Source of the DNA: Escherichia phage T5_ev219
DNA: 64,000 nucleotides
Reading direction: 5' to 3' (one strand)
Sequence record: NC_134263.1
Under the pieces are notes generated by a model. It was not told the DNA's origin, did not search any database, and worked only from the letters and a program-made list of their open reading frames with translations. This document shows, piece after piece, positions 20,879-39,439 of this stretch. Each line of letters opens with the position of its first letter. The stretch's first letter is position 1. The position numbers were made by a program, and so were the translations under genes.

Positions 20879-21295
20879 TTAATCTACTGCATGTATAAAT
20901 CTTTTCCTAACTAGATACATAGTTATTGGATAAATTGAGTACATAAGTATCGGGGAGAAAAGGGTGAAATACGCTGTAACTCCCCCAGCTAACATCAAAG
21001 GTATTAATGCTAGAGTAAGGGCCATAAGAATCATACCGAATGAAACAGCCAAAGCTATGGATATAGGATTCTCTAGTTCCATCCATAACCAACAATATTT
21101 CGTATCTCTATGGCAATTGCATTTACAAACGCCGAATGAACCCATAATTATATACTCTAGTCCGTGAATAACCTTTATTAATAAGCTATTTCGGGTAGTT
21201 AATGCAAGGATAGTAAAGACTATCATTAAAACGAATACTACTAGACTTATTTTCCAGATACCTAGCAGCATCATAGTGAATAGTTCTGCAAACAT
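20879..21295 (-). CDS. integral membrane protein
   Basis: 138 aa, about four hydrophobic helices. Confidence 0.5.
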   Translation of the reverse strand: MFAELFTMMLLGIWKISLVVFVLMIVFTILALTTRNSLLIKVIHGLEYIIMGSFGVCKCNCHRDTKYCWLWMELENPISIALAVSFGMILMALTLALIPLMLAGGVTAYFTLFSPILMYSIYPITMYLVRKRFIHAVD

Positions 21296-21372: not shown

Positions 21373-21786
21373 TTAAACTAGTTCGACATGACCGCCATCA
21401 TAGGTACCACGTTTTATTTCATCGTGATAATCTCCCGAAGCATTCCAATCAGCACCAAAGCGAAGTTTAATGCCTAGTTCTTTACCAGCTTGTTCAAAAG
21501 CCTTTTTAACTGCCCAAAATGCTTCTAAATCATTCCAATCAATTTTGCCATTAATGTATGGAGCAAAATCAAGGGCATCCCCAGTAATATGCTTGCTTTT
21601 ACTAGGATCTTTTAAAAATGAAGTACCATTAGCAATATTCTGGGCACTTTGTGCTACTGTACGAATACCCTGTACGATCGTGAAATCATATGGAGATAAT
21701 TCTAAAGCTCTACGAGCTACTTTTTGTAGCTCTGGCTTAACAGTAGCTAATTGTTTTTCGCTATTTTTACCAAATTTAAAACTCAT
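21373..21786 (-). CDS. lys: endolysin, L-alanyl-D-glutamate peptidase
   Basis: 137 aa; His/Asp metal ligands (H..D...GGH); directly downstream of holin-like gene. Confidence 0.8.
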   Translation of the reverse strand: MSFKFGKNSEKQLATVKPELQKVARRALELSPYDFTIVQGIRTVAQSAQNIANGTSFLKDPSKSKHITGDALDFAPYINGKIDWNDLEAFWAVKKAFEQAGKELGIKLRFGADWNASGDYHDEIKRGTYDGGHVELV

Positions 21787-22439
21787 ATTGATCTACCTAA
21801 AGATCTCTGTTGTGGGGAACAGAGCTTTGTTAAATACTCGTTAAATTTCTCAGAATCGGCTGCATCTACAGGATTATCTTTCCAAGCAATACCAATATAT
21901 CCAGCATAGATATTGTTTAGATTGAAATACGGACAAGTGTATATGTAATTAAAAGTAACGTTCTTAAACGCAGGTATATTTAACCCCATGTATTTATTTA
22001 CTTTTACACTTAAATCCGATGCGTAGTTAAAGCCTTCCAAGTGACGTCTATATAGCTCAGACGTTTTATTTACCGCTTTATCGGCCAAGTCAGCCCTATC
22101 TAATTGCGCATTGCTTTCCCATGCAATAATGTTAGAATAATCATTAATGGCATCGGGTTTATACTTGACGACAAAAACAGCATCCGCACCCGTTTGAGAA
22201 AAGAGTACCATGCTCTTCTCTCTAGCTACATTAGGAAAGTTATCTATCCTTTGAGTTTGAACATCCTGTAGAACCGCAGACGTGGAGAAAGTCTTTAAGA
22301 ATGACATCACCTCGCTAGTATTACTAACAAATAAGAAAATAATGACAGCAACTAAGATAGTTAGCAGACGTTTAAGAAGCGATGCTGGATCTTTCGCTTC
22401 TTGGAGCAGTACCGTTAATAATTGTAAGAACTTTTCCAA
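21783..22439 (-). CDS. hol: holin
   Basis: 218 aa, single N-terminal TM segment, overlaps endolysin start. Confidence 0.65.
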   Translation of the reverse strand: MEKFLQLLTVLLQEAKDPASLLKRLLTILVAVIIFLFVSNTSEVMSFLKTFSTSAVLQDVQTQRIDNFPNVAREKSMVLFSQTGADAVFVVKYKPDAINDYSNIIAWESNAQLDRADLADKAVNKTSELYRRHLEGFNYASDLSVKVNKYMGLNIPAFKNVTFNYIYTCPYFNLNNIYAGYIGIAWKDNPVDAADSEKFNEYLTKLCSPQQRSLGRSI

Positions 22440-22595
22440 TTGTAACCTCCTCTAACCAATACCATTATACTAATTTTGGAGGAAAATTACAATGTGTTTT
22501 TAAAGATCACTTCTGGAGCATAAAATTTTGTCGTTGTCAAGAAGAATTTTAGATAAAAGAAAAGCCAGGGTCGTTAAACCCTGGCTTAAAACTAC

Positions 22596-23207: not shown

Positions 23208-23960
23208 TTATCCAACTAGTGGTTCTAGCTCTAAGTCACAGAAGTTATAAACTTCTAGTTTAAGGTTATTGATACCATCGAATTTATTAACTAATTCGTG
23301 AGTAATATATTTTGCAGGAATACCACTTTCAGATGGATGATCTGATTTAATAGTGAACTTCTGCTCAGCGGGTACTACATTTACTATCAAAGAGTCCATA
23401 TCTAAATGGTTTGTTTCTCTGAGTAGCTCTCCTTCATTGGGGAATCTAACATCTGTTATTACGGCGACGTCTGGGTCGTCTTTAGCGATGGATTGCTCCA
23501 GAATTACGAGCCAAATGCGTTCATGCACCAGCTGCCTTCCTAGCTCTGTCCCTACGAGCTGTAACATTTTTCTCGGAGAAATAAATAAACTATAAAGTCC
23601 ATCTTCTTTAATCTCTGAGATAAGTTGTTGAGGATTAAGATATTTTTCCTCAAAAATAGGCCAAACGTACGAGAAGTCTTCAAACTTATCGATACCGTAC
23701 TTAAACCACACATCTCTGGCTCGCTCCAATTGAGATTGTGTGACCATAAACCATTGGTCAATCTCTTTTCCCTTGCGCTCTCCTAGAAACTCTGGAGTTA
23801 CACCGAGGATTACGGATGCAAGTTCATAAACGGGCTTAGCAAAACTATAACGACGGGGTAAACACGTTGGATACGTATCATTACACCAATCGATAATTAA
23901 TTTTGCAACGGTATCTTTTCCTGCACCTGCTTCGCCATGCAGACCCACTAGTACACTCAT
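23208..23960 (-). CDS. dnk: deoxynucleoside monophosphate kinase
   Basis: 250 aa; N-terminal P-loop GEAGAGKDT. Confidence 0.65.
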   Translation of the reverse strand: MSVLVGLHGEAGAGKDTVAKLIIDWCNDTYPTCLPRRYSFAKPVYELASVILGVTPEFLGERKGKEIDQWFMVTQSQLERARDVWFKYGIDKFEDFSYVWPIFEEKYLNPQQLISEIKEDGLYSLFISPRKMLQLVGTELGRQLVHERIWLVILEQSIAKDDPDVAVITDVRFPNEGELLRETNHLDMDSLIVNVVPAEQKFTIKSDHPSESGIPAKYITHELVNKFDGINNLKLEVYNFCDLELEPLVG

Positions 23961-24493
23961 TTATTAAGTTCCTCTAAAGTTGGTAAAGATTTTGTAGAAT
24001 CAAAAGTTTCTATAACAGCATTTTCACCGTGCAATTGTAAACGAAGTTCATTGGCTCTTTTAACGGCGGATCCTAGATATAGGTAATCAAAGTGACCTCC
24101 GTATATATTATTACCCTTAGAATTAGCAACGTTTACTTCCCACTTCTGGTCACGTTTCTTCCAGCTAACTCCTAGATAACCAGATTTACTTCTGGCAGCT
24201 TTATTTCTCTGGTTTTCTTGGTTATTGGACTCTCTAAGATTTAGCCAACGATTGTCACCACCTACGCGGTTTATGTGATCCACCATCTCAGGAAAATAGC
24301 CCTCCATATAAAGGAATGCTAGCTGATGTGCTAGGTAAGGTTTTCCATCTACCTTTATTTGTATATACCCATCTTTCCTAAGTGTACCTGCAATATTACC
24401 CGCTTTTTGATTACCAACACTCACTAATCTAGTAAATAATCCAGTATCAGGGGTATATTCAAGTAATTCCTTTAATCTTTCTTGTGTCACCAC
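23957..24493 (-). CDS. HNH homing endonuclease with AP2-like domain (paralog 2)
   Basis: 178 aa; near-identical termini to 16517..17053. Confidence 0.75.
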   Translation of the reverse strand: MVTQERLKELLEYTPDTGLFTRLVSVGNQKAGNIAGTLRKDGYIQIKVDGKPYLAHQLAFLYMEGYFPEMVDHINRVGGDNRWLNLRESNNQENQRNKAARSKSGYLGVSWKKRDQKWEVNVANSKGNNIYGGHFDYLYLGSAVKRANELRLQLHGENAVIETFDSTKSLPTLEELNK

Positions 24494-24494: not shown

Positions 24495-24848
24495 TTAATC
24501 TTTCCTATTGTTAATTGGTGGATAATATACTAAACAACGTTTTTCTTGCAAATCTTGGCGATAGAAGCAAACCATACTTGTCAGTCGTGAAATATATGAA
24601 TATTCTGCCTCACGGCATTTTGCCAACATATTCCAATCTTTATATGGTACAACAACTACTACGCCATCTTCCCCATTTGTAGCTAATTTCTTTTCAAACT
24701 TAAAGTCAAAGCTACAAGGTTGAAGTCCTTTAGGCCAGTCTACATGAGCTGTTGGTAGCTCATGTGTGGGTTCTGACTCTATTTCTTGTGCACAGCCTGT
24801 GATTGTGATTGCGGCTGCGAGCAGTATTCCAAGTTTCCAGTTAAACAT
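24495..24848 (-). CDS. lipoprotein (possible o-spanin)
   Basis: 117 aa; signal peptide with lipobox ITGC; 5' end overlaps upstream TM/coiled-coil gene. Confidence 0.45.
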   Translation of the reverse strand: MFNWKLGILLAAAITITGCAQEIESEPTHELPTAHVDWPKGLQPCSFDFKFEKKLATNGEDGVVVVVPYKDWNMLAKCREAEYSYISRLTSMVCFYRQDLQEKRCLVYYPPINNRKD

Positions 24849-25228
24849 GCTAATCTTTCCTCGAACTCCTTACTCTGCTTTTTAGCAATTAATGTTACCA
24901 ATCCAGGCTTTGCGGCTATAATATCTTGGCGGTTAAGTGCTTTATCAAGCTGACCAATTTTCTTATCTAAGTCTGCTTGAGAAATATTGTTCATCGTGAA
25001 ATACTGATTCATTCTAGTCTCACGAAGTTCGCTTTCAGCTTTCACCTTGTTAAGGGAAGTCTCTAGAGAAGAGATCTTTTTAGTAGCTACCGCAAGATCT
25101 CCCGCCAAAGTCTCCACTTTATTTATTAAGTGATAAGCACCGAACCCGATGCCTATCGCTAGACCTGCTCCCAGGATATACCACTTACCGCGCCATATTC
25201 CTGAAAGAAGTTTTTGTATCAAATCCAT
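24779..25228 (-). CDS. membrane-anchored coiled-coil protein (possible i-spanin)
   Basis: 149 aa; N-terminal TM then coiled-coil region. Confidence 0.45.
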   Translation of the reverse strand: MDLIQKLLSGIWRGKWYILGAGLAIGIGFGAYHLINKVETLAGDLAVATKKISSLETSLNKVKAESELRETRMNQYFTMNNISQADLDKKIGQLDKALNRQDIIAAKPGLVTLIAKKQSKEFEERLACLTGNLEYCSQPQSQSQAVHKK

Positions 25229-25883
25229 GCGCTGCTAACCTGTCTTTATCTGATACTTTAATCATATCAGGCTCACCAGTTCCTAGTACACCGAAGATAT
25301 ACTGTTCGAGAACTTGGTGTAAACGGTATAAGTTACTTTCAATTTCCTGCCACGGAATACCTGACTGATGGAAACGAATGTTAGTCTGAATCACGAAGTT
25401 ACGAACATCATCGTTATCGTTCTTTTTAATACCTTTCACATATGCAATCGGTACACGCAGTTCGGATAAGATACGTTCTGCTTTAGGTTTTGCTTCAGCG
25501 AGCAAATCACGCATTGTTTCACGAACATCTCCGCGACTCTTATCCATTAAGTAAGAGCGAACATGCAATCCCATCTCTTCCATTTTATCGAACATAGTGT
25601 CGAGATTAAACGTTTTGAAGCTAAATGCTGGATGCCAGCAGTACAGCTCGTGTAACCAATAAACTTCACCTGCAACAAATAGTGGGTTTACAAAATATTC
25701 GAAATCACCACGGAAGGATAGCGAACCATCACGAAATACCTGGCGAGTATGCACAATGTTCTTTTCTGCATCATCGGTTACTTTGACCAGCAACTCTTCA
25801 GTTTTACGTTCCCAAACACGATCTGGGTCGAACAAACTGTTCTGCAAATCATAAACATCGGCGAACTTAGAAATAATCCTCAT
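25185..25883 (-). CDS. hypothetical protein
   Basis: 232-aa ORF behind a family promoter. Confidence 0.6.
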   Translation of the reverse strand: MRIISKFADVYDLQNSLFDPDRVWERKTEELLVKVTDDAEKNIVHTRQVFRDGSLSFRGDFEYFVNPLFVAGEVYWLHELYCWHPAFSFKTFNLDTMFDKMEEMGLHVRSYLMDKSRGDVRETMRDLLAEAKPKAERILSELRVPIAYVKGIKKNDNDDVRNFVIQTNIRFHQSGIPWQEIESNLYRLHQVLEQYIFGVLGTGEPDMIKVSDKDRLAAHGFDTKTSFRNMAR

Positions 25884-28595: not shown

Positions 28596-28964
28596 TTACA
28601 TCGCCTGAGTAAATGTACGACTAATAACGTCGTTCTGCTGTTCACGCGTCAGTGAGTTAAAACGTACAGCATACCCTGAAACACGGATAGTTAATTGAGG
28701 GTATTTTTCAGGATGTTTCTGTGCATCCAAAAGCTGATCACGACTTAACACATTGACATTTAGGTGCTGACCACCTTCAATTTGAGGGGCGACTTCCACC
28801 TTGACTTCACGGAAGGATTCGGGGTCAAAATGGGGTGTGATACTTTCTAGATCCTCAACCAGAACTTTTTGTTTAAGTTCGCCATTTTTAGAGTACAGTT
28901 GAATAATCTGATTATCATGAACAAGATTAATTACGCCAGACTTAAGATTTTGATATGCTTTCAT
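28596..28964 (-). CDS. autonomous glycyl-radical cofactor, GrcA/YfiD-like
   Basis: 122 aa; C-terminal [11 protein letters not shown]...[23 protein letters not shown] matches the GrcA glycyl-radical domain as recalled. Confidence 0.7.
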
Positions 28965-29238: not shown

Positions 29239-29315
29239 TGGTAGTTAGTAGTGGATTTGAACCACTGTAGTCGCTCCGTATGAAGGAGGTGCATAACCAC
29301 TCTGCCAACTAACTA
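29239..29315 (-). tRNA. tRNA with CAT anticodon (Met, fMet or Ile-lysidine)
   Basis: Manual cloverleaf; loop TTCATAC; CCA encoded. Confidence 0.65.
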
Positions 29316-29409
29316 TTATGTTTTATTAGACTAAGTAAGTATTCTTTATACTCTATAGACCAATTAGCTTTTTTAAACTTTCCTGGACGCATAGTCTTAA
29401 TTCCTAAAT

Positions 29410-29486
29410 TTGGTACTCCGGGAGGGATTTAAACCCCCGATCTCTCGGTTATCAGCCGAGTGCTTTAGATCGCTAAGCTACCGAAG
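29410..29486 (-). tRNA. tRNA-Ile (GAT)
   Basis: Manual cloverleaf; anticodon loop CTGATAA; CCA encoded. Confidence 0.7.
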
Positions 29487-29502
29487 CATTAGAATATTTA
29501 CA

Positions 29503-29793
29503 TCATACACTGTCTAAATAAGAAGTATAATGGAATTTAGCTTCTCCAGTCTTATCTATTTCTACCTCAGTTCGTGGTACTTGACGAACTACACCATGAA
29601 TCATCTTATAGCGAATGCCTTTAGCTGGTTCATGATCTTTTGGAAATACCTGTTTAACCGTTACTACTTTATACTCTTCACGCGGTGTTAACACAACTAC
29701 TTGATCACCTTCTTTGATTTTCCAAGAAGATGGAAATTCATAGGTATATCTTTGACCACCAGTTTGGAATACTACAGAAAGATAACGCTTCAT
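29503..29793 (-). CDS. hypothetical protein
   Basis: 96-aa ORF between tRNA genes. Confidence 0.5.
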   Translation of the reverse strand: MKRYLSVVFQTGGQRYTYEFPSSWKIKEGDQVVVLTPREEYKVVTVKQVFPKDHEPAKGIRYKMIHGVVRQVPRTEVEIDKTGEAKFHYTSYLDSV

Positions 29794-29823
29794 TTGGTTT
29801 CCCTCTCATTAATTTATATAAAT

Positions 29824-29853
29824 ATTATAACAAGAAATAAGAGAGAAGGCAAA
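29824..29853 (-). promoter_or_regulatory. sigma70-type promoter of the conserved family
   Basis: TTGCCT, about 18 bp, TATAAT on minus strand. Confidence 0.5.
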
Positions 29854-29867
29854 TGAATTTTTAAATT

Positions 29868-29942
29868 TGGTGCTCCCACCAGGAATCGAACCCGGTTCAG
29901 ATGCTTACAAGGCAACTGCATCGCCAGCAATGCTTTAGGAGC
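29868..29942 (-). tRNA. tRNA-Thr (TGT)
   Basis: Manual cloverleaf; loop CTTGTAA. Confidence 0.65.
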
Positions 29943-29952
29943 GATAATCCCA

Positions 29953-30117
29953 TTATTTCAACGGGATTTCTTTTTCAATAACAGGAGACTTATCAGTCAT
30001 AACTGTCATTGCCATTTGTTGTAGAAATTCAAAGGTGAAGGCTACACGTTCTTCACCAATCTCTACTTCTACACGTTTCTTTTGTTTATCGATCTTGACT
30101 TTTAGGTTATCAGCCAT
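29953..30117 (-). CDS. small hypothetical protein
   Basis: 54-aa ORF below the track cutoff. Confidence 0.35.
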   Translation of the reverse strand: MADNLKVKIDKQKKRVEVEIGEERVAFTFEFLQQMAMTVMTDKSPVIEKEIPLK

Positions 30118-30361
30118 TAGAGAGTACAGTACTGGTAGTTGGCAATACTACAGATGAAGCAACAGTGTTTAAATGCTTTCTCCAGTCTAGGTTAAATTGT
30201 TTTCGAAACTCTTCATAAGGTTCTTCTGGATAAAAGCTAAAACCTCCTTTCTCGTCATTCAGGATAACAGAGCCGTCAGTTTGTTCGTATGCTCGGTATG
30301 TTTCTCCAATAACAATAATTCGTTTATCGGTACTTTTATTACGAAACTCAAAAACGTGCAT
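30110..30361 (-). CDS. hypothetical protein
   Basis: 83-aa ORF. Confidence 0.45.
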   Translation of the reverse strand: MHVFEFRNKSTDKRIIVIGETYRAYEQTDGSVILNDEKGGFSFYPEEPYEEFRKQFNLDWRKHLNTVASSVVLPTTSTVLSNG

Positions 30362-30377
30362 AATGTTTCCTTAAAGT

Positions 30378-30453
30378 TGGAGCGGCTAGAGGGAATCGAA
30401 CCCTACTCAGCGAGGCTTGGAAGGCCTGCGACACAACCCGTGTGCTTAACCGC
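30378..30453 (-). tRNA. tRNA-Gly (TCC), tentative
   Basis: Manual cloverleaf; good acceptor and T arm; anticodon assignment depends on stem register. Confidence 0.55.
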
Positions 30454-30461
30454 TTATTATT

Positions 30462-30537
30462 TGGCTGGAGAAGGAGGAATCGAACCTACCATTAACGGAG
30501 TCAAAGGCCGTTGTGCTAACCGTTACACTACTCTCCA
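30462..30537 (-). tRNA. tRNA-Gln (TTG)
   Basis: Manual cloverleaf; U1-A72; loop CTTTGAC. Confidence 0.65.
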
Positions 30538-30543
30538 ATAATT

Positions 30544-30619
30544 TGGCTGGGATGCCACGGATCGAACGTGGAACCTTCGGAGTCAGAGGCCGACGATCTG
30601 CCAATTGATCTACATCCCA
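30544..30619 (-). tRNA. tRNA-Gln (CTG)
   Basis: Manual cloverleaf with fully paired arms; loop CTCTGAC. Confidence 0.7.
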
Positions 30620-30632
30620 ATAATTCTTTACT

Positions 30633-30827
30633 CTATGGAAATAGAGTAACTGGCTCAGGTTCTTCAAGGCGCTTACCTTCATGATCTACTCGAATGACTC
30701 CGCATCCTTCGCAAACCACAACTGCACCATAACCTTCTTTGACTTCGGCTTCTGTAATCAGACCAGATAAGTCACCAGTATCTCTGCCCCACATATCAAT
30801 GGAGCATTGTTTGCAGAAATCAGCCAT
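30633..30827 (-). CDS. small Cys-rich protein (zinc-ribbon-like)
   Basis: 64 aa; CKQC...CEGC. Confidence 0.5.
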   Translation of the reverse strand: MADFCKQCSIDMWGRDTGDLSGLITEAEVKEGYGAVVVCEGCGVIRVDHEGKRLEEPEPVTLFP

Positions 30828-30852
30828 AGTTTATTTCCTATTTAAGTTAATT

Positions 30853-30929
30853 TGGGGTGGCTAGTGGAATTCGAATCCACATAGGCCTGATTCACAATCA
30901 GGATCATTAACCAATTATGATATAGCCAC
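30853..30929 (-). tRNA. tRNA-His (GTG)
   Basis: Manual cloverleaf, perfect stems; loop TTGTGAA. Confidence 0.75.
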
Positions 30930-31297
30930 AATTGAAAACTCGCAGGGTTAGCGAAACCATCCTCAATTAGCATGTTCTAGAATACTAATCAAGTTATCTC
31001 CTATTGCACGCAGCTCAAGACGAGTACGAATTTTCAATTGTGGCGGCTCTCAGAAACTCTTCTATTCTAGCCTCAGAAGCTTACCCCCGAACGCATGTCG
31101 GGAAAGTCTTTCCAAGAGCATCAAATAGCACCGTTACACTTTGAGCCATTGATGTATCAAGGAATAGAAGGGCTTGAACCTTCATGAGTTAGACCATTTA
31201 ACTCAACCGCTTTTAAGGTATATTTCTAGGAGTGGATGTTCCTAGTAAACCTATTCGGCAGTCCCGTCTACCAATTCCGGCATATTCCAAGAATTTT

Positions 31298-31471
31298 TTA
31301 TAAACCGGCAGAAGCCTCATTTAAAGCATCAACAATAGCTTCACGCTGGGTCATTCCATACCCGGTGGAGTCTAGGTGAGGCAAATAGGCTGCCCATCCA
31401 TTATCTGTTTCATGAAGGTATGCTTTAAATTTTTTACCATCCTTCATTGTTACAGTAACTGTTTTGCTCAT
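31298..31471 (-). CDS. small protein, HicB-antitoxin-like fold candidate
   Basis: 57-aa ORF with AGGAAT RBS; resemblance weak. Confidence 0.35.
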   Translation of the reverse strand: MSKTVTVTMKDGKKFKAYLHETDNGWAAYLPHLDSTGYGMTQREAIVDALNEASAGL

Positions 31472-31491
31472 AAGGATTCCTTATAGTTAAT

Positions 31492-31581
31492 TGGAGGAAG
31501 GTAATGGAGTCGAACCATCACCGTATCACTACAGCGGGCTAGTTTTCAAGACTAGTTGCGTACCACTACGCCCTACCTTCC
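31492..31581 (-). tRNA. tRNA-Ser (TGA), class II
   Basis: 90 nt; perfect acceptor; loop CTTGAAA; long variable arm. Confidence 0.75.
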
Positions 31582-31588
31582 ATTTGTT

Positions 31589-31679
31589 TGGCGGAAGAGG
31601 AGAGATTTGAACTCTCAAGCCGTTTTACCAGTCAGCCACTTTCCAAGCGGTTTTCGTCGCCAATTCGATTTGCTCTTCC
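31589..31679 (-). tRNA. class II tRNA, probably Ser (GGA)
   Basis: 91 nt; perfect acceptor and T arm; anticodon stem partly paired. Confidence 0.55.
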
Positions 31680-31791
31680 AATAATAAGATGATGCCTCTA
31701 TCATACCAGGCAGTTACGCCTCGCTGGGATTCGAACCCATTAAAACAGCTCAACCGAGATAGTAGGTTTAATTTACTCTGACCATCAAATT

Positions 31792-31868
31792 TGGTGCGTG
31801 ACAAGGGATTCGAACCCTCAAAACCCGACTTCTAAGGACGGTATGTATGCCAATTCCATCAATCACGC
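31792..31868 (-). tRNA. tRNA with TAG anticodon (Leu codon CUA) but short variable loop
   Basis: 77 nt; good acceptor, D, anticodon and T arms; 5-nt variable region. Confidence 0.55.
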
Positions 31869-31873
31869 GTATT

Positions 31874-31952
31874 TGGTGGAGGATAACGAATTCGAATCGT
31901 TCTGATGTCCTCGGTGCAAGCGAGGTGTCCACTCCCAGCAGACCCATCCCCC
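31874..31952 (-). tRNA. tRNA-Ala (TGC)
   Basis: Perfect anticodon stem; loop CTTGCAC. Confidence 0.7.
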
Positions 31953-32238
31953 AAATTCTTTAGTTTACTAAGGCTATTAGCTCGGCGTAACTACAGCACC
32001 TTCGCTTCGAGCGGAAGGAACTGCGTCATCTCGCAAACCCAATACACTATTCAGTTGCCGCTGAATCTAGTGGACTAATCTAGAACTTCTCCCAAATCGT
32101 AGGAATCGTGCTTTTTGGCAGCCAGTCCTAGGTCGAGCTAATACCTTAGTGAACTATGATGAGGATTTCTCCCCATCAATTTATATAAATATTATAACAA
32201 GAAATTAAGCATTAAGCAACTGCGTTTTTTCTTGAAAT

Positions 32239-32317
32239 TGGTAGATCGCCTGGGACTCGAACCCAGAACCTTCCGATTAAAAGTCGGATGCTACTAAACC
32301 TATTGAGCTAGCGACCT
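32239..32317 (-). tRNA. tRNA-Lys (TTT)
   Basis: Perfect anticodon stem; loop CTTTTAA. Confidence 0.7.
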
Positions 32318-32318
32318 A

Positions 32319-32486
32319 TTAGTAACCATTATATACTTCTTTAATAGAGTGGACTTTTAAATAGGGATGATTAGTATTAAACTCTACCATTACTTCATCC
32401 CAATTTTTACCATAATGGGCAAGTAAGGATTTTGATGTATTCTTACCTAAACGTTTGTCACTTACTACTAATCGAAATACTTTCAT
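32319..32486 (-). CDS. small hypothetical protein
   Basis: 55-aa ORF with GAGGAT RBS. Confidence 0.4.
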   Translation of the reverse strand: MKVFRLVVSDKRLGKNTSKSLLAHYGKNWDEVMVEFNTNHPYLKVHSIKEVYNGY

Positions 32487-32506
32487 TTCGAAATCCTCTA
32501 TTAAAA

Positions 32507-32584
32507 TGGAAGCGGGTGCAGGAATCGAACCTACCTCTTTCTAGCTTATGAGACTAGTGATCTCTACCAGAGATCTAACCCGCA
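32507..32584 (-). tRNA. tRNA with CAT anticodon, unpaired 1:72 (initiator-like)
   Basis: Loop CTCATAA; D stem GATC/GATC; U1-U72 mismatch. Confidence 0.6.
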
Positions 32585-32590
32585 ATTGTT

Positions 32591-32669
32591 TGGTCTCCGT
32601 GGGAGGATTTGAACCCCCGACCCTATCGCCCCAAACGAAACGCTCTGACCAAACTGAGCTACACGGAGA
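32591..32669 (-). tRNA. tRNA-Pro (TGG)
   Basis: Perfect acceptor; loop TTTGGGG. Confidence 0.65.
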
Positions 32670-32672
32670 ATA

Positions 32673-32831
32673 TTATTTCTTCAACCACAACAAAGATAAG
32701 CCCAGCATACTAAAGCCGCTAACTAATCCGATACCTTTTTCTTCTATAGTAAAAGTATCTAGATTAAATGCTGTTATAGCTATTGGCATACACCATAATG
32801 CCATAAAAACTTGAGCTATCTTGTGTTTCAT
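32673..32831 (-). CDS. small hydrophobic protein
   Basis: 52-aa ORF with GGAAGG RBS behind a family promoter. Confidence 0.4.
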   Translation of the reverse strand: MKHKIAQVFMALWCMPIAITAFNLDTFTIEEKGIGLVSGFSMLGLSLLWLKK

Positions 32832-33042
32832 TTTGCTTTCCTTCCCTTCACTTTATAAGATATATTATACAGAGAATTAAGCAGAATAGCAAATGAATTT
32901 TTAATAAATTTACTTATTGTGTAGGCCACCTGGAGGCTATGAACCCCACGGCTGACAAAGAAGTTTGCGAGACCTCTCTTAAATGCCAGAATAGACCCGC
33001 CGATCTATCGGAACCTACATAATAAGTAAACTTTATAGTGTC

Positions 33043-33162
33043 ATTCTAGACAGGATTCGAACCTGTTATCACTTGTGCGGACTTACGAGAACCATTCTTT
33101 CACTCGAATCGAACGAGCTTCTGCCCTCGCCAAGTTGGTTTCCCCATCAACCACGCTAGAAT
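33043..33162 (-). other. 120-nt tRNA-like structured element (two T-arm-like hairpins inside a 7-bp closing stem)
   Basis: CTAGAAT/ATTCTAG pair at the ends; internal GGTTCGAATCC-like and TTCGATT hairpins. Confidence 0.3.
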
Positions 33163-33284
33163 GTTTGATTGTTTTCAGTGCAAGAGTCCGAGTCTTGGAC
33201 ACGACCGCTTCGCAAGTACATAGGCAGCTTATCATGAGTCAGCACTTCCGAATTGCTAGCTCCGTGTTCTGCACTGAAATTTTA

Positions 33285-33641
33285 TTAGTTTAACCGTAAA
33301 GTATTATCTACTTCACCATTAATTGTTCGGCATTCCTCTGGGATTGCCGGGGTGGCCTTGTATTCCCACCACTCAGCACCATCATATTCCCCACGTTCTA
33401 GCCAAGTTCCATCGGCAAACCATACATTACCATAAAGTAATTGTCCACCGTATCCAGAATCATATTCAAAGTCTAGGTTATTAAGAAAATCCTCAATATC
33501 TTCTTCTGCATAACCTAAAGGTAATACCCAAACTTTTTTATCCCCATAATACCCGAATTCTATTTTAATACACTTAACTTCAGAATTAGTATTTTTTAAG
33601 GCAAGTAACAGCTCTTCTTTAGCATTACGCATATTACGCAT
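33285..33641 (-). CDS. hypothetical protein
   Basis: Track ORF 33285..33728 trimmed to Met30 because the N-terminal extension runs into tRNA-Asp. Confidence 0.5.
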   Translation of the reverse strand: MRNMRNAKEELLLALKNTNSEVKCIKIEFGYYGDKKVWVLPLGYAEEDIEDFLNNLDFEYDSGYGGQLLYGNVWFADGTWLERGEYDGAEWWEYKATPAIPEECRTINGEVDNTLRLN

Positions 33642-33666
33642 AATATATTCCCATACTGGATTAATT

Positions 33667-33743
33667 TGGCGCGACCGATGGGATTTGAACCCACATTCTC
33701 TCCCGTGACAGGGGAGTACCATTACCAAGCCAGCCCCGGTCGC
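33667..33743 (-). tRNA. tRNA-Asp (GTC)
   Basis: Perfect acceptor; loop CTGTCAC. Confidence 0.75.
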
Positions 33744-33752
33744 ATAATTTAT

Positions 33753-33938
33753 TTACTCAGCTTTGAGTTTTTCAATAGCTGCATTAAGTTCTTTAAGAAA
33801 CTCTTTTCGTACATTAAGACGATTGAGACTTACTAGTATATCATGTTTAAGTTCTTCGATGTATTTCTTTTCAACTTCAATATTGTTGATAGTGCTATCA
33901 CGATGAACTTCTAACTGTGCAATTACATTCTTGGACAT
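33753..33938 (-). CDS. hypothetical coiled-coil protein
   Basis: 61-aa ORF. Confidence 0.4.
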   Translation of the reverse strand: MSKNVIAQLEVHRDSTINNIEVEKKYIEELKHDILVSLNRLNVRKEFLKELNAAIEKLKAE

Positions 33939-34040
33939 GCTTGTTTCCTCAGTTATTAATGAAAATGGTATCTGTGGCTGAATTCGATGTCAGCAATGAT
34001 AGCTGGTTGGCTACCGGTTTACTTAACTCTACACAGAATT

Positions 34041-34118
34041 TGGCGGTTCCTGCTGGATTCGAACCAGCAACCCTCAACTTAACAAGATGCCGCTCTAACC
34101 AATTAGAGCTAAGGAACC
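34041..34118 (-). tRNA. tRNA-Asn (GTT), tentative
   Basis: Perfect acceptor, D and T arms; weak anticodon stem; loop TTGTTAA. Confidence 0.55.
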
Positions 34119-34613
34119 ATATAAGTCAGAACTAGAGTTAATACGTTCTAGATATTTACTAAGATCCCTAGAATTTATACTAAACCACTCATGTTCTTTT
34201 AAATCTTTGAAATACTGGTGAATTAGTTTTTCACCTTTTCGTTTGTCAAACCAAAAAGACCAATGCTCTAACTTATAATCCCTATAAGGGGAATAAGTCT
34301 GATATTGAGCTAATCTCTCTTTTGGATTTTGACTCATACCTATTTTATACTGATTTTTCCATGCAGGATTACTAATACAGTATACAAAACCTTCAGAAAT
34401 AGGAAGTTTATTTTCCTGCTTAAACTTTATAAAGGAAAGTGCAGCAAGTTTTCTCGAATACATAGTATTTGTATTCTTTTTGGTATTACCATTGGTTCCT
34501 GAAAGATTTATATATTCTTCCATAAATCTCTGGATTAGTTCTGCGGTTATATAGAAGGGCTCATTAGTAACAACGCCTTTCTTTACCAAACTATCAAAAA
34601 CTTTTGTATGCAC
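34095..34613 (-). CDS. GIY-YIG-like domain protein
   Basis: 172 aa; GFVYCISNP...YKIGMSQNP..R pattern; last 7 codons and stop overlap the 5' end of tRNA-Asn. Confidence 0.55.
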   Translation of the reverse strand: MHTKVFDSLVKKGVVTNEPFYITAELIQRFMEEYINLSGTNGNTKKNTNTMYSRKLAALSFIKFKQENKLPISEGFVYCISNPAWKNQYKIGMSQNPKERLAQYQTYSPYRDYKLEHWSFWFDKRKGEKLIHQYFKDLKEHEWFSINSRDLSKYLERINSSSDLYGSLALIG

Positions 34614-34633
34614 TACTTCTTTCCTTTAGTAAT

Positions 34634-34709
34634 TTGGACGACCGCATGAGATTTGAACTCACATAAAAAGGATTTGCAATCCTTCGCCTAAGCCATTCAG
34701 CCAACGGTC
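34634..34709 (-). tRNA. tRNA-Cys (GCA)
   Basis: Loop TGCAAAT. Confidence 0.65.
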
Positions 34710-34897
34710 GATTTATCTTGTTTTTCGAGATCTTCAAATTCTAAATCATTGAAGTTCCCTAGAGTACGGGAGTAGAACCCGTCTCCTGCGTCATAGCCTG
34801 ATTTGCCACAATCACACATTTTAAATTCACGAAGATGTGTGAAAATATGCTCAGAACCACAACACTTAAATCTAACTAATCGTTTCATTAGTTTCAT
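34697..34897 (-). CDS. small zinc-ribbon-like protein
   Basis: 66 aa; CCGSEH...CDCG; 3' end overlaps tRNA-Cys 5' end. Confidence 0.45.
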   Translation of the reverse strand: MKLMKRLVRFKCCGSEHIFTHLREFKMCDCGKSGYDAGDGFYSRTLGNFNDLEFEDLEKQDKSTVG

Positions 34898-34946
34898 TAG
34901 CTTCTCCAGTTCAATTTATATAATTATTATATAGAACTTTTGGAAA

Positions 34947-35231
34947 CTAAGCAACTACATTTTTTAAGAATTTGATGTCTTTCTTCTTCTTATATTTCCA
35001 CGTTAATGGATTCTGTCGATTGTGAACGCTTGAGATCTTCGTCTCGTCAAAGTTCTTCAATATCATGTAATCACAAGATAATTGTTCTAATGGAATGTGA
35101 TCACCGTCAAAAGCATATACATAAGGCTGTTGACTAGCACGATAATGATAGACTTTGTTAATTCTACGTTTCAGCGACTTATCAGCGCAGTAAATAAAGA
35201 AGTTTTCAGGATGCATCAGCATCTCCTTCAA
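34947..35231 (-). CDS. hypothetical protein
   Basis: 94-aa ORF. Confidence 0.45.
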   Translation of the reverse strand: MKEMLMHPENFFIYCADKSLKRRINKVYHYRASQQPYVYAFDGDHIPLEQLSCDYMILKNFDETKISSVHNRQNPLTWKYKKKKDIKFLKNVVA

Positions 35232-35233
35232 TT

Positions 35234-35308
35234 TGGTGCACCCTGTTCGTATCGAACGAACCTCTCAAGCTCTTCAGGCAAGCGCTAATCCATCTCAGCT
35301 AAAGGTGC
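35234..35308 (-). tRNA. tRNA-Phe (GAA), tentative
   Basis: Good acceptor and T arm; loop CTGAAGA; partial anticodon stem. Confidence 0.55.
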
Positions 35309-35315
35309 AAATTTT

Positions 35316-35391
35316 GGCAAACCTACTAGGACTCGAACCTAGACCGTACGGTTTTGGAGACCGACATGCTGTCCAGTAACACTCTAGGAAT
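35316..35391 (-). tRNA. tRNA-like, Trp (CCA) anticodon arm but unpaired acceptor stem (possible pseudogene)
   Basis: Good D, anticodon and T arms and 3' CCA; 5' and 3' acceptor strands not complementary. Confidence 0.35.
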
Positions 35392-35399
35392 GCAGAAAT

Positions 35400-35476
35400 T
35401 GGCGTCCTGTGCGGGGATCGAACCCGCAAATCCTACCTTGAAAGGGTAGTGACTTTACCAGTTTGTCTAACAGGAC
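35400..35476 (-). tRNA. tRNA-Glu (TTC)
   Basis: Perfect acceptor and anticodon stems; loop CTTTCAA. Confidence 0.7.
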
Positions 35477-35483
35477 TTAAATT

Positions 35484-35574
35484 TGGTGTTGGATGATGGA
35501 GTCGAACCACCCGAGACCCTTCCGAGTCGGCAGATTTACAGTCTGCTTCGCTACCTCTACGATACTAATCCAAC
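35484..35574 (-). tRNA. tRNA-Tyr (GTA), class II
   Basis: 91 nt; perfect acceptor; anticodon stem GCAGA/TCTGC; loop CTGTAAA. Confidence 0.7.
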
Positions 35575-35702
35575 ATATTTAAAAGTATTCAAATACTAGT
35601 TTAAACACTTTTAAATATGTTTCCGAATTAGATAACTATTATACCAAGTTTTAAGGCACTGAGCAAGTCAAATTTTAAAGAACTTGCTCAGTGCTGTATT
35701 AG

Positions 35703-35978
35703 TTAGTCGAACTTAGGAGTGACAGTTAAGGAGAACGGAAGTTCGAAAACTTCTTCGCCCTCATTACTAACGGTAACTACACGACCTTTAAGTTCAGACA
35801 TTAAAATATCAATATCAGCTTTTGCATCTGGAGCCATGCCAGCTTCAATACATTTAGCTTTAACTTCCGGTAAAAGCTCTACGTTATAGAGATAGAGCCA
35901 CTCAATCTCACCTTCCCAGTCTTCCCAGGATTTGCAGATTGCACTTTCAATACCAGTTGCTACAACACGATTTTGCAT
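35703..35978 (-). CDS. hypothetical protein
   Basis: 91-aa ORF behind a family promoter. Confidence 0.5.
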   Translation of the reverse strand: MQNRVVATGIESAICKSWEDWEGEIEWLYLYNVELLPEVKAKCIEAGMAPDAKADIDILMSELKGRVVTVSNEGEEVFELPFSLTVTPKFD

Positions 35979-36068
35979 TAATTAACTCCTTCATCAATTT
36001 ATATAACTATTATACCAGAAATTTAAAGTAAAAGGCAAGTACATTTTTAAAAATTCTGTTTGGAGGAG

Positions 36069-36275
36069 CTAAACTCCAGATTTTTCGGCCAAGTCTAGAC
36101 TAATAAGAGTTATAGCCATAATTGCTGCACCGTGTTCTTTTTCTCCGGTGTTTTTAGCAGAGTCTATAATATCCTTAATCTGTTCGTAATAACTTTTTAC
36201 TTCTTGTTCAATGCCTGCCTCGGCTATCATGCCTTTAGCCATGAATCGTTGCATGGTAATTTCAGGATTAGCCAT
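36069..36275 (-). CDS. hypothetical protein
   Basis: 68-aa ORF. Confidence 0.45.
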   Translation of the reverse strand: MANPEITMQRFMAKGMIAEAGIEQEVKSYYEQIKDIIDSAKNTGEKEHGAAIMAITLISLDLAEKSGV

Positions 36276-36450
36276 GTTGTTTCTCCAGTTTCATTTTTAA
36301 TAGTTTACAGATGAAATCAACGTCTTCATCTGTGCCTAAGTCTCTATCCTCAAGGGTCGCCTTGAAGTTTTTCGTCAATTCCATGAGGATGATTTCCCTA
36401 GAACGACGTGTTGGCGGAGGTGGATGTCTATACATCTTATTTCCTTAATT

Positions 36451-36527
36451 TGGTAGGGGTGGTGGGATTCGAACCCACAAAACCTGAATTTTAAGTCCAG
36501 TACCTATGCCAATTCGATTACACCCCC
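36451..36527 (-). tRNA. tRNA with TAA anticodon (Leu codon UUA) but short variable loop
   Basis: 77 nt; good acceptor, anticodon and T arms; D-loop AATTGGCATA shared with 31792..31868. Confidence 0.55.
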
Positions 36528-36628
36528 GTGTAATCAGTTTATTAGTTGATACATATTATAGCCTAAAGAAAACCCTACTACTAATCCTACTAACCAACCA
36601 ATATAATAATCTTTTAATTTCACGGGTG

Positions 36629-36814
36629 TCAACCTCGTTCAATATCTAGAGAAATACCACAGGTAGGATTAATGCCTGTGCCTTTGCACGTCGGACAAAC
36701 CCAGATATTACAGAATGTATCCCCTGCTTCTGCATCAGAACTTTCTCCAACTCCTAGACAGTCAGGACAGGCACATTCTTCTAGCTCTTGCTTGAGTTCT
36801 TGAAACTTAGACAT
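36629..36814 (-). CDS. small zinc-ribbon protein
   Basis: 61 aa; CACPDC...CPTCKG. Confidence 0.5.
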   Translation of the reverse strand: MSKFQELKQELEECACPDCLGVGESSDAEAGDTFCNIWVCPTCKGTGINPTCGISLDIERG

Positions 36815-36823
36815 ATAGTTTCC

Positions 36824-37012
36824 TTATTCAATTACTTTTGAGGCTTCAAGGGAGTCGATATAGTGTACGTTTTCTACCATAATCATATAATCTGCCACTT
36901 TATCCATAGCCTGAGCTTCAGAGGTAGCCCTGGCTAACCTATATCCTTTTTTATATTCATCCGGGTATTCCCTATCTGGAATAAACACAACATAAACTAG
37001 GTATAGTTCCAC
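36824..37012 (-). CDS. hypothetical protein
   Basis: 62-aa ORF. Confidence 0.4.
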   Translation of the reverse strand: MELYLVYVVFIPDREYPDEYKKGYRLARATSEAQAMDKVADYMIMVENVHYIDSLEASKVIE

Positions 37013-37033
37013 TTGTAACCCCTCTAATTAAAC

Positions 37034-37111
37034 TGGTGGCTCCCCGAGGATTCGAACCTACGTACCTTCCGGTTATGAGCCGGGTGCTCATACCATATGA
37101 GCTTGAGAACC
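37034..37111 (-). tRNA. tRNA with CAT anticodon, E. coli fMet-like anticodon arm
   Basis: Anticodon arm CCGG-CTCATAA-CCGG; D stem GCTC/GAGC; weak T stem. Confidence 0.5.
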
Positions 37112-37117
37112 AGAATT

Positions 37118-37206
37118 TGGCGGAAGAAGTGGGAATCGAACCCACAAGGCTATATTTCAAACCGACAGATTAGCAATCTGCTGCAATACCGTTATGCTAT
37201 TCTTCC
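37118..37206 (-). tRNA. tRNA-Ser (GCT), class II
   Basis: 89 nt; perfect acceptor; loop TTGCTAA. Confidence 0.65.
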
Positions 37207-37310
37207 GAATTTATAAGATATATTATATTAGAAATTTAGCTTCATAGCAAGAAAATTTTTCAAGTTTTCGGTAGACATCTCATCCACATCTACAGGAGAA
37301 ACAAATCCAT

Positions 37311-37745: not shown

Positions 37746-37920
37746 ATCTGGTTCCTCTCTCAAATTTATAGATATATTATACAGAGAATTTAGCATTCAA
37801 GCAATCAAATTTTTTAACTTTTTAGAGGAAAATCATAGGGCACTTAAGGGCAGCAGATAAGTGGTGAGGACCAAAATTTGTGACCCCACTAAAAATCCGG
37901 GGGCAATTTTTAAAGACCCT

Positions 37921-37949: not shown

Positions 37950-38011
37950 ATATGTTATGGATGAGTGATCAAAGAGACACACATTTTCTATATACTAGGA
38001 GGTGTCAAAAA

Positions 38012-39430: not shown

Positions 39431-39439
39431 GGAGGAATT

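What the first reader, a model, noticed from the sequence alone, without database searches (positions are those of the whole stretch)
24495..25228. Spanin-like overlapping gene pair located 2 kb away from holin and endolysin
A TM-plus-coiled-coil protein (24779..25228) overlaps a lipoprotein with lipobox ITGC (24495..24848), the architecture of an i-spanin/o-spanin pair, but the pair is separated from the holin-endolysin pair by the ClpP-like, dNMP kinase and HNH genes. The lipoprotein is long (117 aa) for an o-spanin, so the call is tentative.
Basis: inference. Interest (0 to 1): 0.4.

Follow-up and report, generated by a model that had tools for sequence, protein, structure and literature searches.

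The report
T5-type phage spanin gene pair
These two overlapping genes are the well-catalogued outer-membrane-breaking "spanin" pair of T5-like phages, sitting in their usual place, so the finding is correct but ordinary.

Summary
On the minus strand, a 149-aa ORF (25228..24779) has an N-terminal membrane helix followed by a helical, heptad-periodic domain. It overlaps by 70 nt a 117-aa lipoprotein ORF (24848..24495; lipobox ITGC, Cys19, Ala at +2).

The window is a T5-like phage (Demerecviridae). The pair is 93% and 98% identical to T5 ORF041 and ORF040. It has the same lengths and 70-nt overlap as the published "T5 family" of overlapped two-component spanins (Kongari et al. 2018, PMC6139136). 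It hits PHROG 739 and 812, "Rz-like spanin" (E 7e-37 and 6e-30).

T4 PseT.3 and PseT.2, an experimentally validated spanin, fall in the same two PHROGs. They align to profiles of this family at 97-98% hhalign probability.

The distance from holin-endolysin is not an anomaly. The order spanins, dNMP kinase, Clp protease, terminator/promoter, holin, endolysin is conserved in the six relatives whose loci reach the holin (T5, SCF, Sugarland, PR1, Kamaji, Eos). The extra 0.5 kb here is a mobile HNH endonuclease gene inserted between the o-spanin stop and the dnk start.

The length of 117 aa is normal for this family (107-118 aa). Verdict: a real feature, interpreted correctly, already known, of low interest.

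The parts
24779..25228 (-). i-spanin gene (149 aa). It encodes a short cytoplasmic N-terminus, a Gly-rich transmembrane helix at about residues 17-35, a periplasmic coiled-coil helix at about 36-79, a second helix at 84-98, and the conserved AAKPGLVT...KK...E..(L/F).C.(T/S)GN...C C-terminal module with Cys128 and Cys136.
   Evidence: - ORF confirmed.
- phrog_739 'Rz-like spanin', E 7.1e-37.
- 93% identical to T5 ORF041.
- Same length (149 aa) and start (MDLIQKLL...) as the SpaninDB entry for AKFV33.
- Hydropathy and heptad test; AlphaFold2 helices.
- Invariant K107, P108, L110, T112, K116, C128, G131, N132, C136 across six sequences representing five lineages.
- hhalign to T4 PseT.3: probability 97%, E 1.2e-10.
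24495..24848 (-). o-spanin gene (117 aa). It encodes a signal peptidase II signal with lipobox ITGC (lipidated Cys19, Ala at +2). The mature 98-aa domain carries a Pro-containing linker, a WP motif and four further Cys (45, 78, 94, 105).
   Evidence: - ORF confirmed.
- phrog_812 'Rz-like spanin', E 6.3e-30.
- 98% identical to T5 ORF040 and 100% identical to proteins named 'Rz-like spanin' or 'membrane lipoprotein' in NCBI.
- Invariant C19, W38, P39, C94, Y96, E102, R104, C105.
- hhalign to T4 PseT.2: probability 98.2%, E 3.7e-14.
24779..24848 (-). 70-nt region read in two frames. It encodes i-spanin residues 127-149, including the conserved Cys128-x7-Cys136, and o-spanin residues 1-23 (signal peptide and lipobox). 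The o-spanin ribosome-binding site lies just upstream, inside the i-spanin gene.
   Evidence: The overlap is 70 nt in T5, BB1 and SCF, and 49-88 nt in PR1, Eos, Kamaji and Sugarland. 'T5 spanins overlap by 70 bp' is stated in PMC6139136.
25949..25977 (-). Promoter-like site (TTGCGA-17-TAAAAT) upstream of the 232-aa ORF. It is the probable start of the transcription unit orf232, i-spanin, o-spanin, HNH, dnk, clp.
   Evidence: Consensus scan. Its position corresponds to the annotated putative early promoter T5P13 in T5. This is inference only; the number of promoter-like sites in the region is not above the shuffle expectation.
22562..22587 (-). Intrinsic terminator-like hairpin (11-bp stem followed by a T run) after the Clp-like protease gene. 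It ends the spanin-containing unit.
   Evidence: A terminator is annotated at the same place in T5, Sugarland, PR1 and BB1.
21373..22492 (-). Partner lysis genes in the next transcription unit: promoter-like site 22492..22464, class III T-type holin 22439..21783 and L-alanyl-D-glutamate peptidase-type endolysin 21786..21373.
   Evidence: - Pfam Phage_holin_T, E 8e-114.
- phrog_860 holin and phrog_465 endolysin.
- 96% and 99% identical to T5 holin and lysozyme.
- Promoter-like site, corresponding to T5P12.

Best explanation
The two genes encode the two-component spanin of a T5-like phage. This is the T5 family of the 'overlapped' class, and it is a remote homologue of T4 PseT.3/PseT.2.

The mechanism below is inferred by homology and from the lambda and T4 literature. 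It was not shown here.

1. The 149-aa protein inserts into the inner membrane through its N-terminal helix (N-in, C-out) and extends a mostly helical, partly coiled-coil domain into the periplasm.
2. The 117-aa protein is lipidated on Cys19 and cleaved by signal peptidase II. With Ala at +2, it is sorted by Lol to the inner leaflet of the outer membrane.
3. The C-terminal regions of the two subunits bind each other. The resulting complexes span the periplasm, threaded through the murein meshwork.
4. Conserved cysteines probably give disulfide-linked homodimers: i-spanin C128 and C136, and o-spanin C94 and C105.
5. Once the T-type holin has released the endolysin and the murein is degraded, the complexes are free to change conformation. 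They then fuse or disrupt the outer membrane, which is the last step of lysis.

The genes are transcribed with dnk and the Clp-like protease from a unit directly upstream of the separate holin-endolysin unit. That is the normal layout in this phage family.
For: - **Family assignment.** The pair hits phrog_739 and phrog_812, 'Rz-like spanin', at E 7e-37 and 6e-30.
- **Identity to T5.** 93% and 98% to T5 ORF041 and ORF040. T5, EPS7, SPC35, AKFV33 and others are listed as the T5 i- and o-spanin families, with an overlap of 70 bp. The AKFV33 gene models are 149 and 117 aa.
- **Public naming.** The exact o-spanin sequence is named 'Rz-like spanin' in NCBI records.
- **Link to experiment.** T4 PseT.3 and PseT.2 fall in the same two PHROGs at 1.3e-37 and 5e-42. 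They align to the family profiles at 97% and 98.2% probability. The T4 pair complements a lambda RzamRz1am lysis defect, and its o-spanin Cys87 and Cys98 are essential (PMC6139136). These align with C94 and C105 here, at the same 11-residue spacing.
- **Architecture conserved at low identity.** A TMD-bearing i-spanin, a lipobox o-spanin and a 49-88 nt overlap are kept in Sugarland, Eos, Kamaji and PR1, at 28-45% identity.
- **Sequence features.** Lipobox, Ala at +2, hydrophobic segment, heptad periodicity and helical model.
- **Context.** Synteny with a T-type holin and endolysin is conserved across the six relatives whose loci reach the holin.
Against: - I found no experiment on any T5-family spanin in the searchable literature. 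PMC6139136 states that essentially all experimental work was done on lambda Rz/Rz1. Function therefore rests on homology to T4 and on architecture.
- There is no Pfam or NCBIfam match and no solved homologue.
- The TMD is Gly-rich and only borderline by Kyte-Doolittle (1.57). Topology is inferred from a weak positive-inside bias.
- The o-spanin AlphaFold2 model has low confidence (pLDDT 49.7). Subunit contact could not be modelled.
Confidence: 0.93

Rival explanations
1. The lipoprotein is a superinfection-exclusion or receptor-blocking lipoprotein of the T5 Llp or Cor type, and the overlapping membrane protein is functionally unrelated to it.
For: T5-like phages are known to encode a small early lipoprotein, Llp, that blocks FhuA (cited in PMC4342426). 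The gene lies in the early region. The mature domain, about 98 aa with four Cys, looks like a small folded domain rather than the Pro-rich unstructured Rz1 type.
Against: - The only PHROG hit is the spanin family 812, which also contains T4 PseT.2.
- The gene is always paired and overlapped with a type II membrane, coiled-coil partner across genera.
- The C-terminal C..YR...E.RC motif is shared with the T4 o-spanin, whose two cysteines are essential for lysis.
- The pair is kept in phages of different hosts, hence different receptors.
Confidence: 0.03
2. The 149-aa membrane protein is a periplasmic regulator (RI-like antiholin) of the T-type holin rather than a spanin subunit.
For: The holin is a homologue of T4 T (Pfam Phage_holin_T, 8e-114). 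According to PMC12894885, T4 T is controlled by a periplasmic antiholin, gprI. The 149-aa protein has a single N-terminal membrane segment and a periplasmic domain.
Against: - It is homologous to T4 PseT.3, the i-spanin: phrog_739, and hhalign 97%.
- No other PHROG family matched at E up to 0.01.
- Its conserved C-terminal module is encoded in the same DNA as the o-spanin start.
Confidence: 0.02
3. The overlap is a chance pair of ORFs, and one or both are not expressed.
For: The i-spanin start has only a weak Shine-Dalgarno sequence (AGG). No Pfam family matches.
Against: - Both ORFs are intact in more than 500 phage records, down to 28-45% identity in other genera, with start, lipobox and cysteines conserved.
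- This is the only lipoprotein-like start in the 64-kb window, and none appeared in shuffles.
- The o-spanin has a strong Shine-Dalgarno sequence.
Confidence: 0.01

Closest known systems
T5 family of overlapped two-component spanins: T5 ORF041/ORF040, AKFV33 orf046/orf045, EPS7, SPC35, Stitch, DT57C, FFH1, My1 (Kongari et al. 2018, PMC6139136)
   Same: - 93% and 98% amino-acid identity to the T5 proteins.
- Identical lengths to AKFV33 (149 and 117 aa).
- Identical 70-nt overlap, lipobox and cysteine pattern.
- Same genomic position upstream of dnk, clp, holin and endolysin.
   Different: Only local context differs. Here an HNH endonuclease gene sits between the o-spanin and dnk (also in BB1 and slur09). 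In T5 a different HNH gene sits just upstream of the i-spanin and changes its first 13 or so residues. Shivani and phiR201 carry a GIY-YIG gene between the two spanin genes.
[quoted passage not shown]
   Same: - Same PHROG families, 739 and 812.
- Profile alignment at 97-98% probability over about 90 residues of each subunit. [quoted passage not shown]
- In both phages the spanin genes are outside the holin-endolysin unit, although in T4 they are fully unlinked from it.
- Both phages use a class III T-type holin.
   Different: - Only 21-26% identity.
- The T4 genes overlap by 4 nt, against 70 nt here.
- T4 PseT.3 has no cysteine and ends where the T5-family i-spanin continues with a 22-residue tail bearing Cys128 and Cys136.
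- T5-family o-spanins, except PR1, carry an extra Cys pair (C45/C78) with no equivalent in T4.
Lambda Rz/Rz1, the 'embedded' class and prototype of the mechanism
   Same: The two-subunit logic is the same: a type II inner-membrane protein with periplasmic helices, plus an outer-membrane lipoprotein encoded out of frame in the same DNA. Periplasmic cysteines sit near the C-terminal interaction region.
   Different: - No detectable sequence homology; no Pfam family (so no Rz or Rz1 family) matches even at E up to 10.
- Rz1 is fully embedded in Rz, and its mature form is 40 aa and Pro-rich. Here the o-spanin is only partly overlapped, and its mature form is 98 aa with predicted strands and a helix (low-confidence model; Jpred figures for AKFV33).

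Membership tests
Two-component spanin (functional class, Summer 2007 / Kongari 2018 criteria) | The i-spanin has an N-terminal transmembrane domain followed by a periplasmic, largely alpha-helical or coiled-coil domain. | tested here: met
   - Hydrophobic segment 17-35, with a +2 N-terminal flank.
- AlphaFold2 helices at 2-79, 84-98, 108-116 and 120-129, at pLDDT 66.5.
- Heptad periodicity at 36-79, reached by 0.1% of shuffles.
- Pepcoil coiled coil at 33-76 listed for the AKFV33 orthologue.
- Caveat: the Kyte-Doolittle score of 1.57 is borderline, and no dedicated TM predictor was available.
Two-component spanin (functional class, Summer 2007 / Kongari 2018 criteria) | The o-spanin has a signal peptidase II signal with a lipobox, and lacks the inner-membrane retention signal (no Asp at +2). 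| tested here: met
   ITGC fits [LVI][ASTVI][GAS]C. K5 lies in the n-region, the h-region is uncharged and +2 is Ala. The Cys is invariant in all six sequences (five lineages). The Sugarland orthologue is annotated with LipoP SPII cleavage at residues 18-19. Actual processing was not tested.
Two-component spanin (functional class, Summer 2007 / Kongari 2018 criteria) | Adjacent genes in an embedded, overlapped or separated architecture. | tested here: met
   Overlapped class. The o-spanin starts 70 nt before the i-spanin stop, in the -1 frame, and extends 284 nt (stop codon included) beyond it.
Two-component spanin (functional class, Summer 2007 / Kongari 2018 criteria) | At least one periplasmic cysteine available for homotypic disulfide linkage (found in 507 of 528 systems). 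| tested here: met
   The i-spanin has C128 and C136. The o-spanin has C45, C78, C94 and C105. C128, C136, C94 and C105 are invariant. Disulfide formation itself was not tested.
Two-component spanin (functional class, Summer 2007 / Kongari 2018 criteria) | Required for outer-membrane disruption, seen as a lysis defect in Mg2+ medium or complementation of lambda RzamRz1am. | not testable with these tools
   I found no experiment on a T5-family pair in the held literature. The homologous T4 pair complements lambda RzamRz1am.
Two-component spanin (functional class, Summer 2007 / Kongari 2018 criteria) | Physical complex between the C-terminal regions of the two subunits. | not testable with these tools
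   No multimer prediction was available, and the o-spanin monomer model is unreliable (pLDDT 49.7).
T5 spanin family (Kongari 2018: at least 40% identity over at least 40% of the periplasmic domain) | Sequence identity to T5 i- and o-spanins above the family threshold. | tested here: met
   92.8% over residues 11-149 and 98.3% over residues 1-117, against the T5 locus.
PHROG 739 / 812 (T4 PseT.3 / PseT.2-type spanins) | Significant match to both family profiles, with the validated T4 proteins belonging to the same profiles. | tested here: met
   Window pair 7.1e-37 and 6.3e-30. T4 PseT.3 and PseT.2 1.3e-37 and 5e-42. hhalign 97% and 98.2%.
Lambda Rz / Rz1 sequence families (Pfam) | Match to a Pfam Rz or Rz1 model. 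| tested here: not met
   No Pfam family at E up to 0.01. At E up to 10 there are only coiled-coil or TM noise hits for the i-spanin and nothing for the o-spanin. The pair works like Rz/Rz1 but is not a sequence-family member.

The most novel reading that the evidence does not exclude
The most novel reading not excluded is that the T5-family spanin is a mechanistic variant of the T4 type, and that the locus is a preferred landing site for homing endonucleases.

**Variant of the T4 type.** The i-spanin has gained a 22-residue Cys-x7-Cys tail, encoded in the same DNA as the o-spanin signal peptide. The o-spanin has gained a second cysteine pair, C45/C78. Both of these are lost together in PR1, which suggests an intramolecular disulfide. 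Covalent linkage may therefore have shifted from the o-spanin-only scheme of T4 to both subunits.

**Endonuclease hotspot.** Insertions are seen at three different positions: upstream of the i-spanin in T5, between the two genes in Shivani, and at the o-spanin/dnk stop-start junction here. These insertions could convert the locus between overlapped and separated architectures.
Probability: 0.15. Interest if true: 0.25.

Novelty: already known. Interest (0 to 1): 0.08.

Why it matters
It matters little beyond correct annotation. Many T5-like genome records still label one or both genes 'hypothetical protein', or mislabel the lipoprotein as the 'i-spanin'. A clean assignment is therefore useful for annotation and for engineering lysis in therapeutic T5-like phages.

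The tested link to T4 PseT.3/PseT.2 gives the T5 family an experimental anchor. It also shows how an overlapped architecture can arise from a separated one, by a C-terminal extension of the i-spanin. That is a modest evolutionary point, not a new system.

Tried and rejected
- **Curated family searches.** Pfam and NCBIfam gave no family for either protein. Membership in the lambda Rz/Rz1 sequence families is rejected.
- **Solved structures.** A profile search of the PDB found no significant homologue. For the i-spanin there were only sub-threshold coiled-coil proteins such as Lpp, M protein and sigma-1.
- **o-spanin structure.** The single-sequence AlphaFold2 model had pLDDT 49.7. I judged it too poor for a fold search, so none was run.
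- **Large homology searches.** I did not run the large protein database searches. The phage collection, PHROGs and the literature had already settled identity.
- **Summer et al. 2007.** The original Rz/Rz1-equivalents paper could not be read because it is not held.
- **Experimental work on T5 spanins.** Literature searches found nothing beyond the bioinformatic catalogue.
- **Exact-sequence look-up.** The i-spanin is not in the protein collection; its closest relative is 99.3% identical, in Salmonella phage SCF.
- **Rejected readings.** I considered and rejected Llp-like exclusion lipoprotein, RI-like antiholin and chance ORFs. The reasons are given under the rival explanations.

Full report
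**1. Observation.**
The ORF listing and the raw sequence show two minus-strand ORFs at exactly the reported coordinates. One is 25228..24779 (ATG, 149 aa) and the other 24848..24495 (ATG, 117 aa).
- They share 70 nt. The second starts 380 nt into the first, so it is in the -1 frame.
- The 117-aa product begins MFNWKLGILLAAAITITGC. It has a basic residue, an uncharged hydrophobic stretch and the lipobox ITGC (Cys19), with Ala at +2.
- Its start is preceded by AAGGAG...GAGGAAAG.
- The 149-aa product has a Gly-rich hydrophobic segment (17-35; KD19 maximum 1.57). A region at 36-79 has heptad hydrophobic periodicity reached by 0.1% of shuffles.
- A single-sequence AlphaFold2 model (pLDDT 66.5) is helical over 2-79, 84-98, 108-116 and 120-129.
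- With a simple lipoprotein filter, this is the only hit among 386 ATG-initiated frames of at least 60 aa in the window. None was found in 20 shuffles.

**2. What the window is.**
Megablast of the region and of 24 kb around it finds hundreds of T5-like phages of Salmonella and Escherichia (Demerecviridae) at 90-98% identity. Salmonella phage VSe12 is the best long match. A run of 23 tRNA genes lies downstream, as expected for a T5-like phage.

In T5 itself (AY587007) the order is ORF041, ORF040, dnk, putative Clp protease, terminator, early promoter T5P12, holin, lysozyme. The window proteins match these as follows:

| Window protein | T5 counterpart | Identity |
|---|---|---|
| i-spanin | ORF041 | 93% |
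| o-spanin | ORF040 | 98% |
| dNMP kinase | dnk | 97% |
| Clp-like protease | putative Clp protease | 96% |
| holin | holin | 96% |
| endolysin | lysozyme | 99% |

**3. Identity of the pair.**
- The two proteins hit phrog_739 (E 7.1e-37) and phrog_812 (E 6.3e-30), both 'Rz-like spanin'.
- Many GenBank records annotate the orthologues as i-spanin, o-spanin or Rz-like spanin. The exact 117-aa sequence is in NCBI as 'Rz-like spanin' / 'membrane lipoprotein' of Shigella phage SSP1.
- Kongari et al. 2018 (PMC6139136) list a 'T5' i-spanin family and a 'T5' o-spanin family in the overlapped class: T5, EPS7, Stitch, SPC35, AKFV33, FFH1, DT57C and My1, plus the separated variants Shivani and phiR201. 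They state that 'the T5 spanins overlap by 70 bp'.
- Their supplement gives the AKFV33 i-spanin as a 149-aa protein starting MDLIQKLL..., the o-spanin as 117 aa, the overlap as 70, and a predicted coiled coil at residues 33-76.
- Genome papers on Shivani, Sugarland and OSYSP describe the same 'T5-like lysis cassette'.

The pair is therefore already known.

**4. Conservation beyond close relatives.**
I extracted the locus from T5, BB1, SCF, Sugarland (Klebsiella), PR1 (Providencia), Kamaji (Serratia) and Eos. I re-derived the two ORFs from sequence. Every locus has three features:
- an i-spanin of 147-164 aa with an N-terminal hydrophobic segment (the PR1 annotation starts too late; the full ORF is 150 aa);
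- a lipobox-bearing o-spanin of 107-118 aa (ITGC, ASGC, ISAC, LSGC, IVGC);
- an overlap of 49-88 nt.

At 28-45% identity the invariant residues are as follows:
- o-spanin: C19, W38, P39, C94, Y96, E102, R104, C105;
- i-spanin: K107, P108, L110, T112, K116, C128, G131, N132, C136.

O-spanin C45 and C78 are present in all lineages except PR1, where both are replaced (Y and G). This is consistent with an intramolecular C45-C78 disulfide, though that is an inference.

The length of 117 aa is thus typical of the family. The combined periplasmic length (115 + 98 = 213) lies within the published 62-300 range.

**5. Link to an experimentally validated spanin.**
A T4-family o-spanin sequence in the supplement (phage Bp7) looked similar, so I tested the relationship.
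- hhalign of the family profile against Bp7 gave 98.4% probability (o-spanin). Against the Bp7 i-spanin periplasmic domain, which I reconstructed by reversing the sequence as printed in the supplement, it gave 96.4%.
- Against T4 PseT.2 and PseT.3, taken from NC_000866, it gave 98.2% (E 3.7e-14) and 97.0% (E 1.2e-10).
- T4 PseT.2 and PseT.3 hit the same PHROGs, 812 and 739, at 5e-42 and 1.3e-37.
- The T4 pair complements lambda RzamRz1am. Its o-spanin Cys87 and Cys98 are both essential and form disulfide-linked dimers (PMC6139136). They align with C94 and C105 here, at the same spacing.

Two differences stand out:
- T4 PseT.3 has no cysteine and ends at the position of residue 127 or so of the window protein.
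- The extra 22-residue tail of the T5 family carries C128 and C136. It is exactly the segment that overlaps the o-spanin signal sequence.

The 'overlapped' T5 architecture therefore looks like a T4-type 'separated' pair whose i-spanin was extended. This too is an inference.

**6. Position relative to holin and endolysin.**
The order i-spanin/o-spanin, dnk, Clp protease, holin, endolysin is conserved in T5, SCF, Sugarland, PR1, Kamaji and Eos.
- In the window, a strong terminator-like hairpin (22587..22562) follows the Clp gene.
- A promoter-like site (22492..22464) precedes the holin. Both match the terminator and promoter annotated in T5.
- The spanins therefore sit in the transcription unit directly upstream of the holin-endolysin unit.
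- The gap is 1,520 nt in T5 and SCF and 2,055 nt here.
- In T4 the homologous genes are also unlinked to t and e.

**7. The HNH gene.**
The additional 535 nt of that gap are the HNH endonuclease ORF 23957..24493 (Pfam HNH_3, 7.8e-11; phrog_99, 8.6e-60).
- It is present in BB1 (99.8% identical) and slur09, but absent from most relatives.
- It is inserted precisely at the o-spanin TAA / dnk ATG overlap.
- The first 30 nt of dnk carry 8, mostly synonymous, differences from HNH-less alleles. The rest of dnk is 97-100% identical. This pattern is typical of homing-endonuclease target-site recoding.

**8. Mechanism.**
Shown here:
- the sequence features of a type II membrane, coiled-coil protein and an outer-membrane-type lipoprotein;
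- conserved paired architecture;
- homology to T4 PseT.3/PseT.2;
- conserved cysteines;
- synteny with holin and endolysin.

Inferred from the lambda and T4 literature:
- lipidation and Lol sorting;
- C-terminal heterotypic binding;
- disulfide-linked homodimers;
- a periplasm-spanning complex restrained by murein;
- outer-membrane fusion or disruption after endolysin action.

Not tested anywhere I could find: any experiment on a T5-family pair.

**9. Negative results.**
- No Pfam or NCBIfam family matched.
- There was no solved homologue.
- The o-spanin AlphaFold2 model was unusable.

**10. Verdict.**
The feature is real and correctly interpreted. Both stated doubts, distance and length, are explained by family-wide conservation. 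The system is already catalogued. Interest is low.

Noticed in passing
window 23957..24493 (-), junctions at 24493-24497 and 23957-23960: An HNH endonuclease gene (178 aa, GTG start) is inserted exactly between the o-spanin stop and the dnk start, which overlap as TAATG in T5 and SCF. It is 99.8% identical to the BB1 copy and absent from most relatives. The first 30 nt of dnk carry 8, mostly synonymous, changes relative to HNH-less alleles, which looks like homing-site recoding. Other endonuclease genes sit upstream of the i-spanin in T5 and between the two spanin genes in Shivani and phiR201, so the locus may be an insertion hotspot.
   Followed up: partly
window 25185..25883 (-): A 232-aa ORF of unknown function (phrog_4243, no Pfam) overlaps the i-spanin start by 44 nt. 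It lies directly upstream of the i-spanin in BB1, SCF, Sugarland, Eos and Kamaji. In T5 AY587007 the same reading frame is annotated as two ORFs (ORF044 and ORF043), and an HNH gene separates it from the i-spanin. Whether it has any role in lysis is unknown.
   Followed up: no
window 20879..21295 (-): A 138-aa ORF of unknown function (phrog_5944) lies immediately downstream of the endolysin; its sequence has several hydrophobic stretches, so it may be a multi-pass membrane protein (read by eye, not tested). ORFs of the same length and position are annotated in T5 (ORF035) and Sugarland. It could be lysis-associated, but this was not examined.
   Followed up: no
L001 (T5 AY587007) 4127..4570 and L003 (PR1) 4097..4549: The public annotations of the i-spanin start look too short in two records. 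T5 ORF041 is annotated from an internal Met, although the full ORF is 147 aa. PR1 gp051 is annotated without its transmembrane segment, although the full ORF is 150 aa. Several records also label the lipoprotein as the 'i-spanin'.
   Followed up: partly
window 29239..41386 (-): There is a cluster of 23 tRNA genes, as in T5-like phages. It includes one called tRNA-Ser with the unusual anticodon ACT at 41313..41386.
   Followed up: no
window 28596..28964 (-): A 122-aa ORF ends with ...[25 protein letters not shown]. From memory, this resembles the C-terminal glycyl-radical motif of GrcA/YfiD-type autonomous glycyl radical cofactors. PR1 has a gene annotated 'radical cofactor' in the equivalent region. 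This was not tested here.
   Followed up: no
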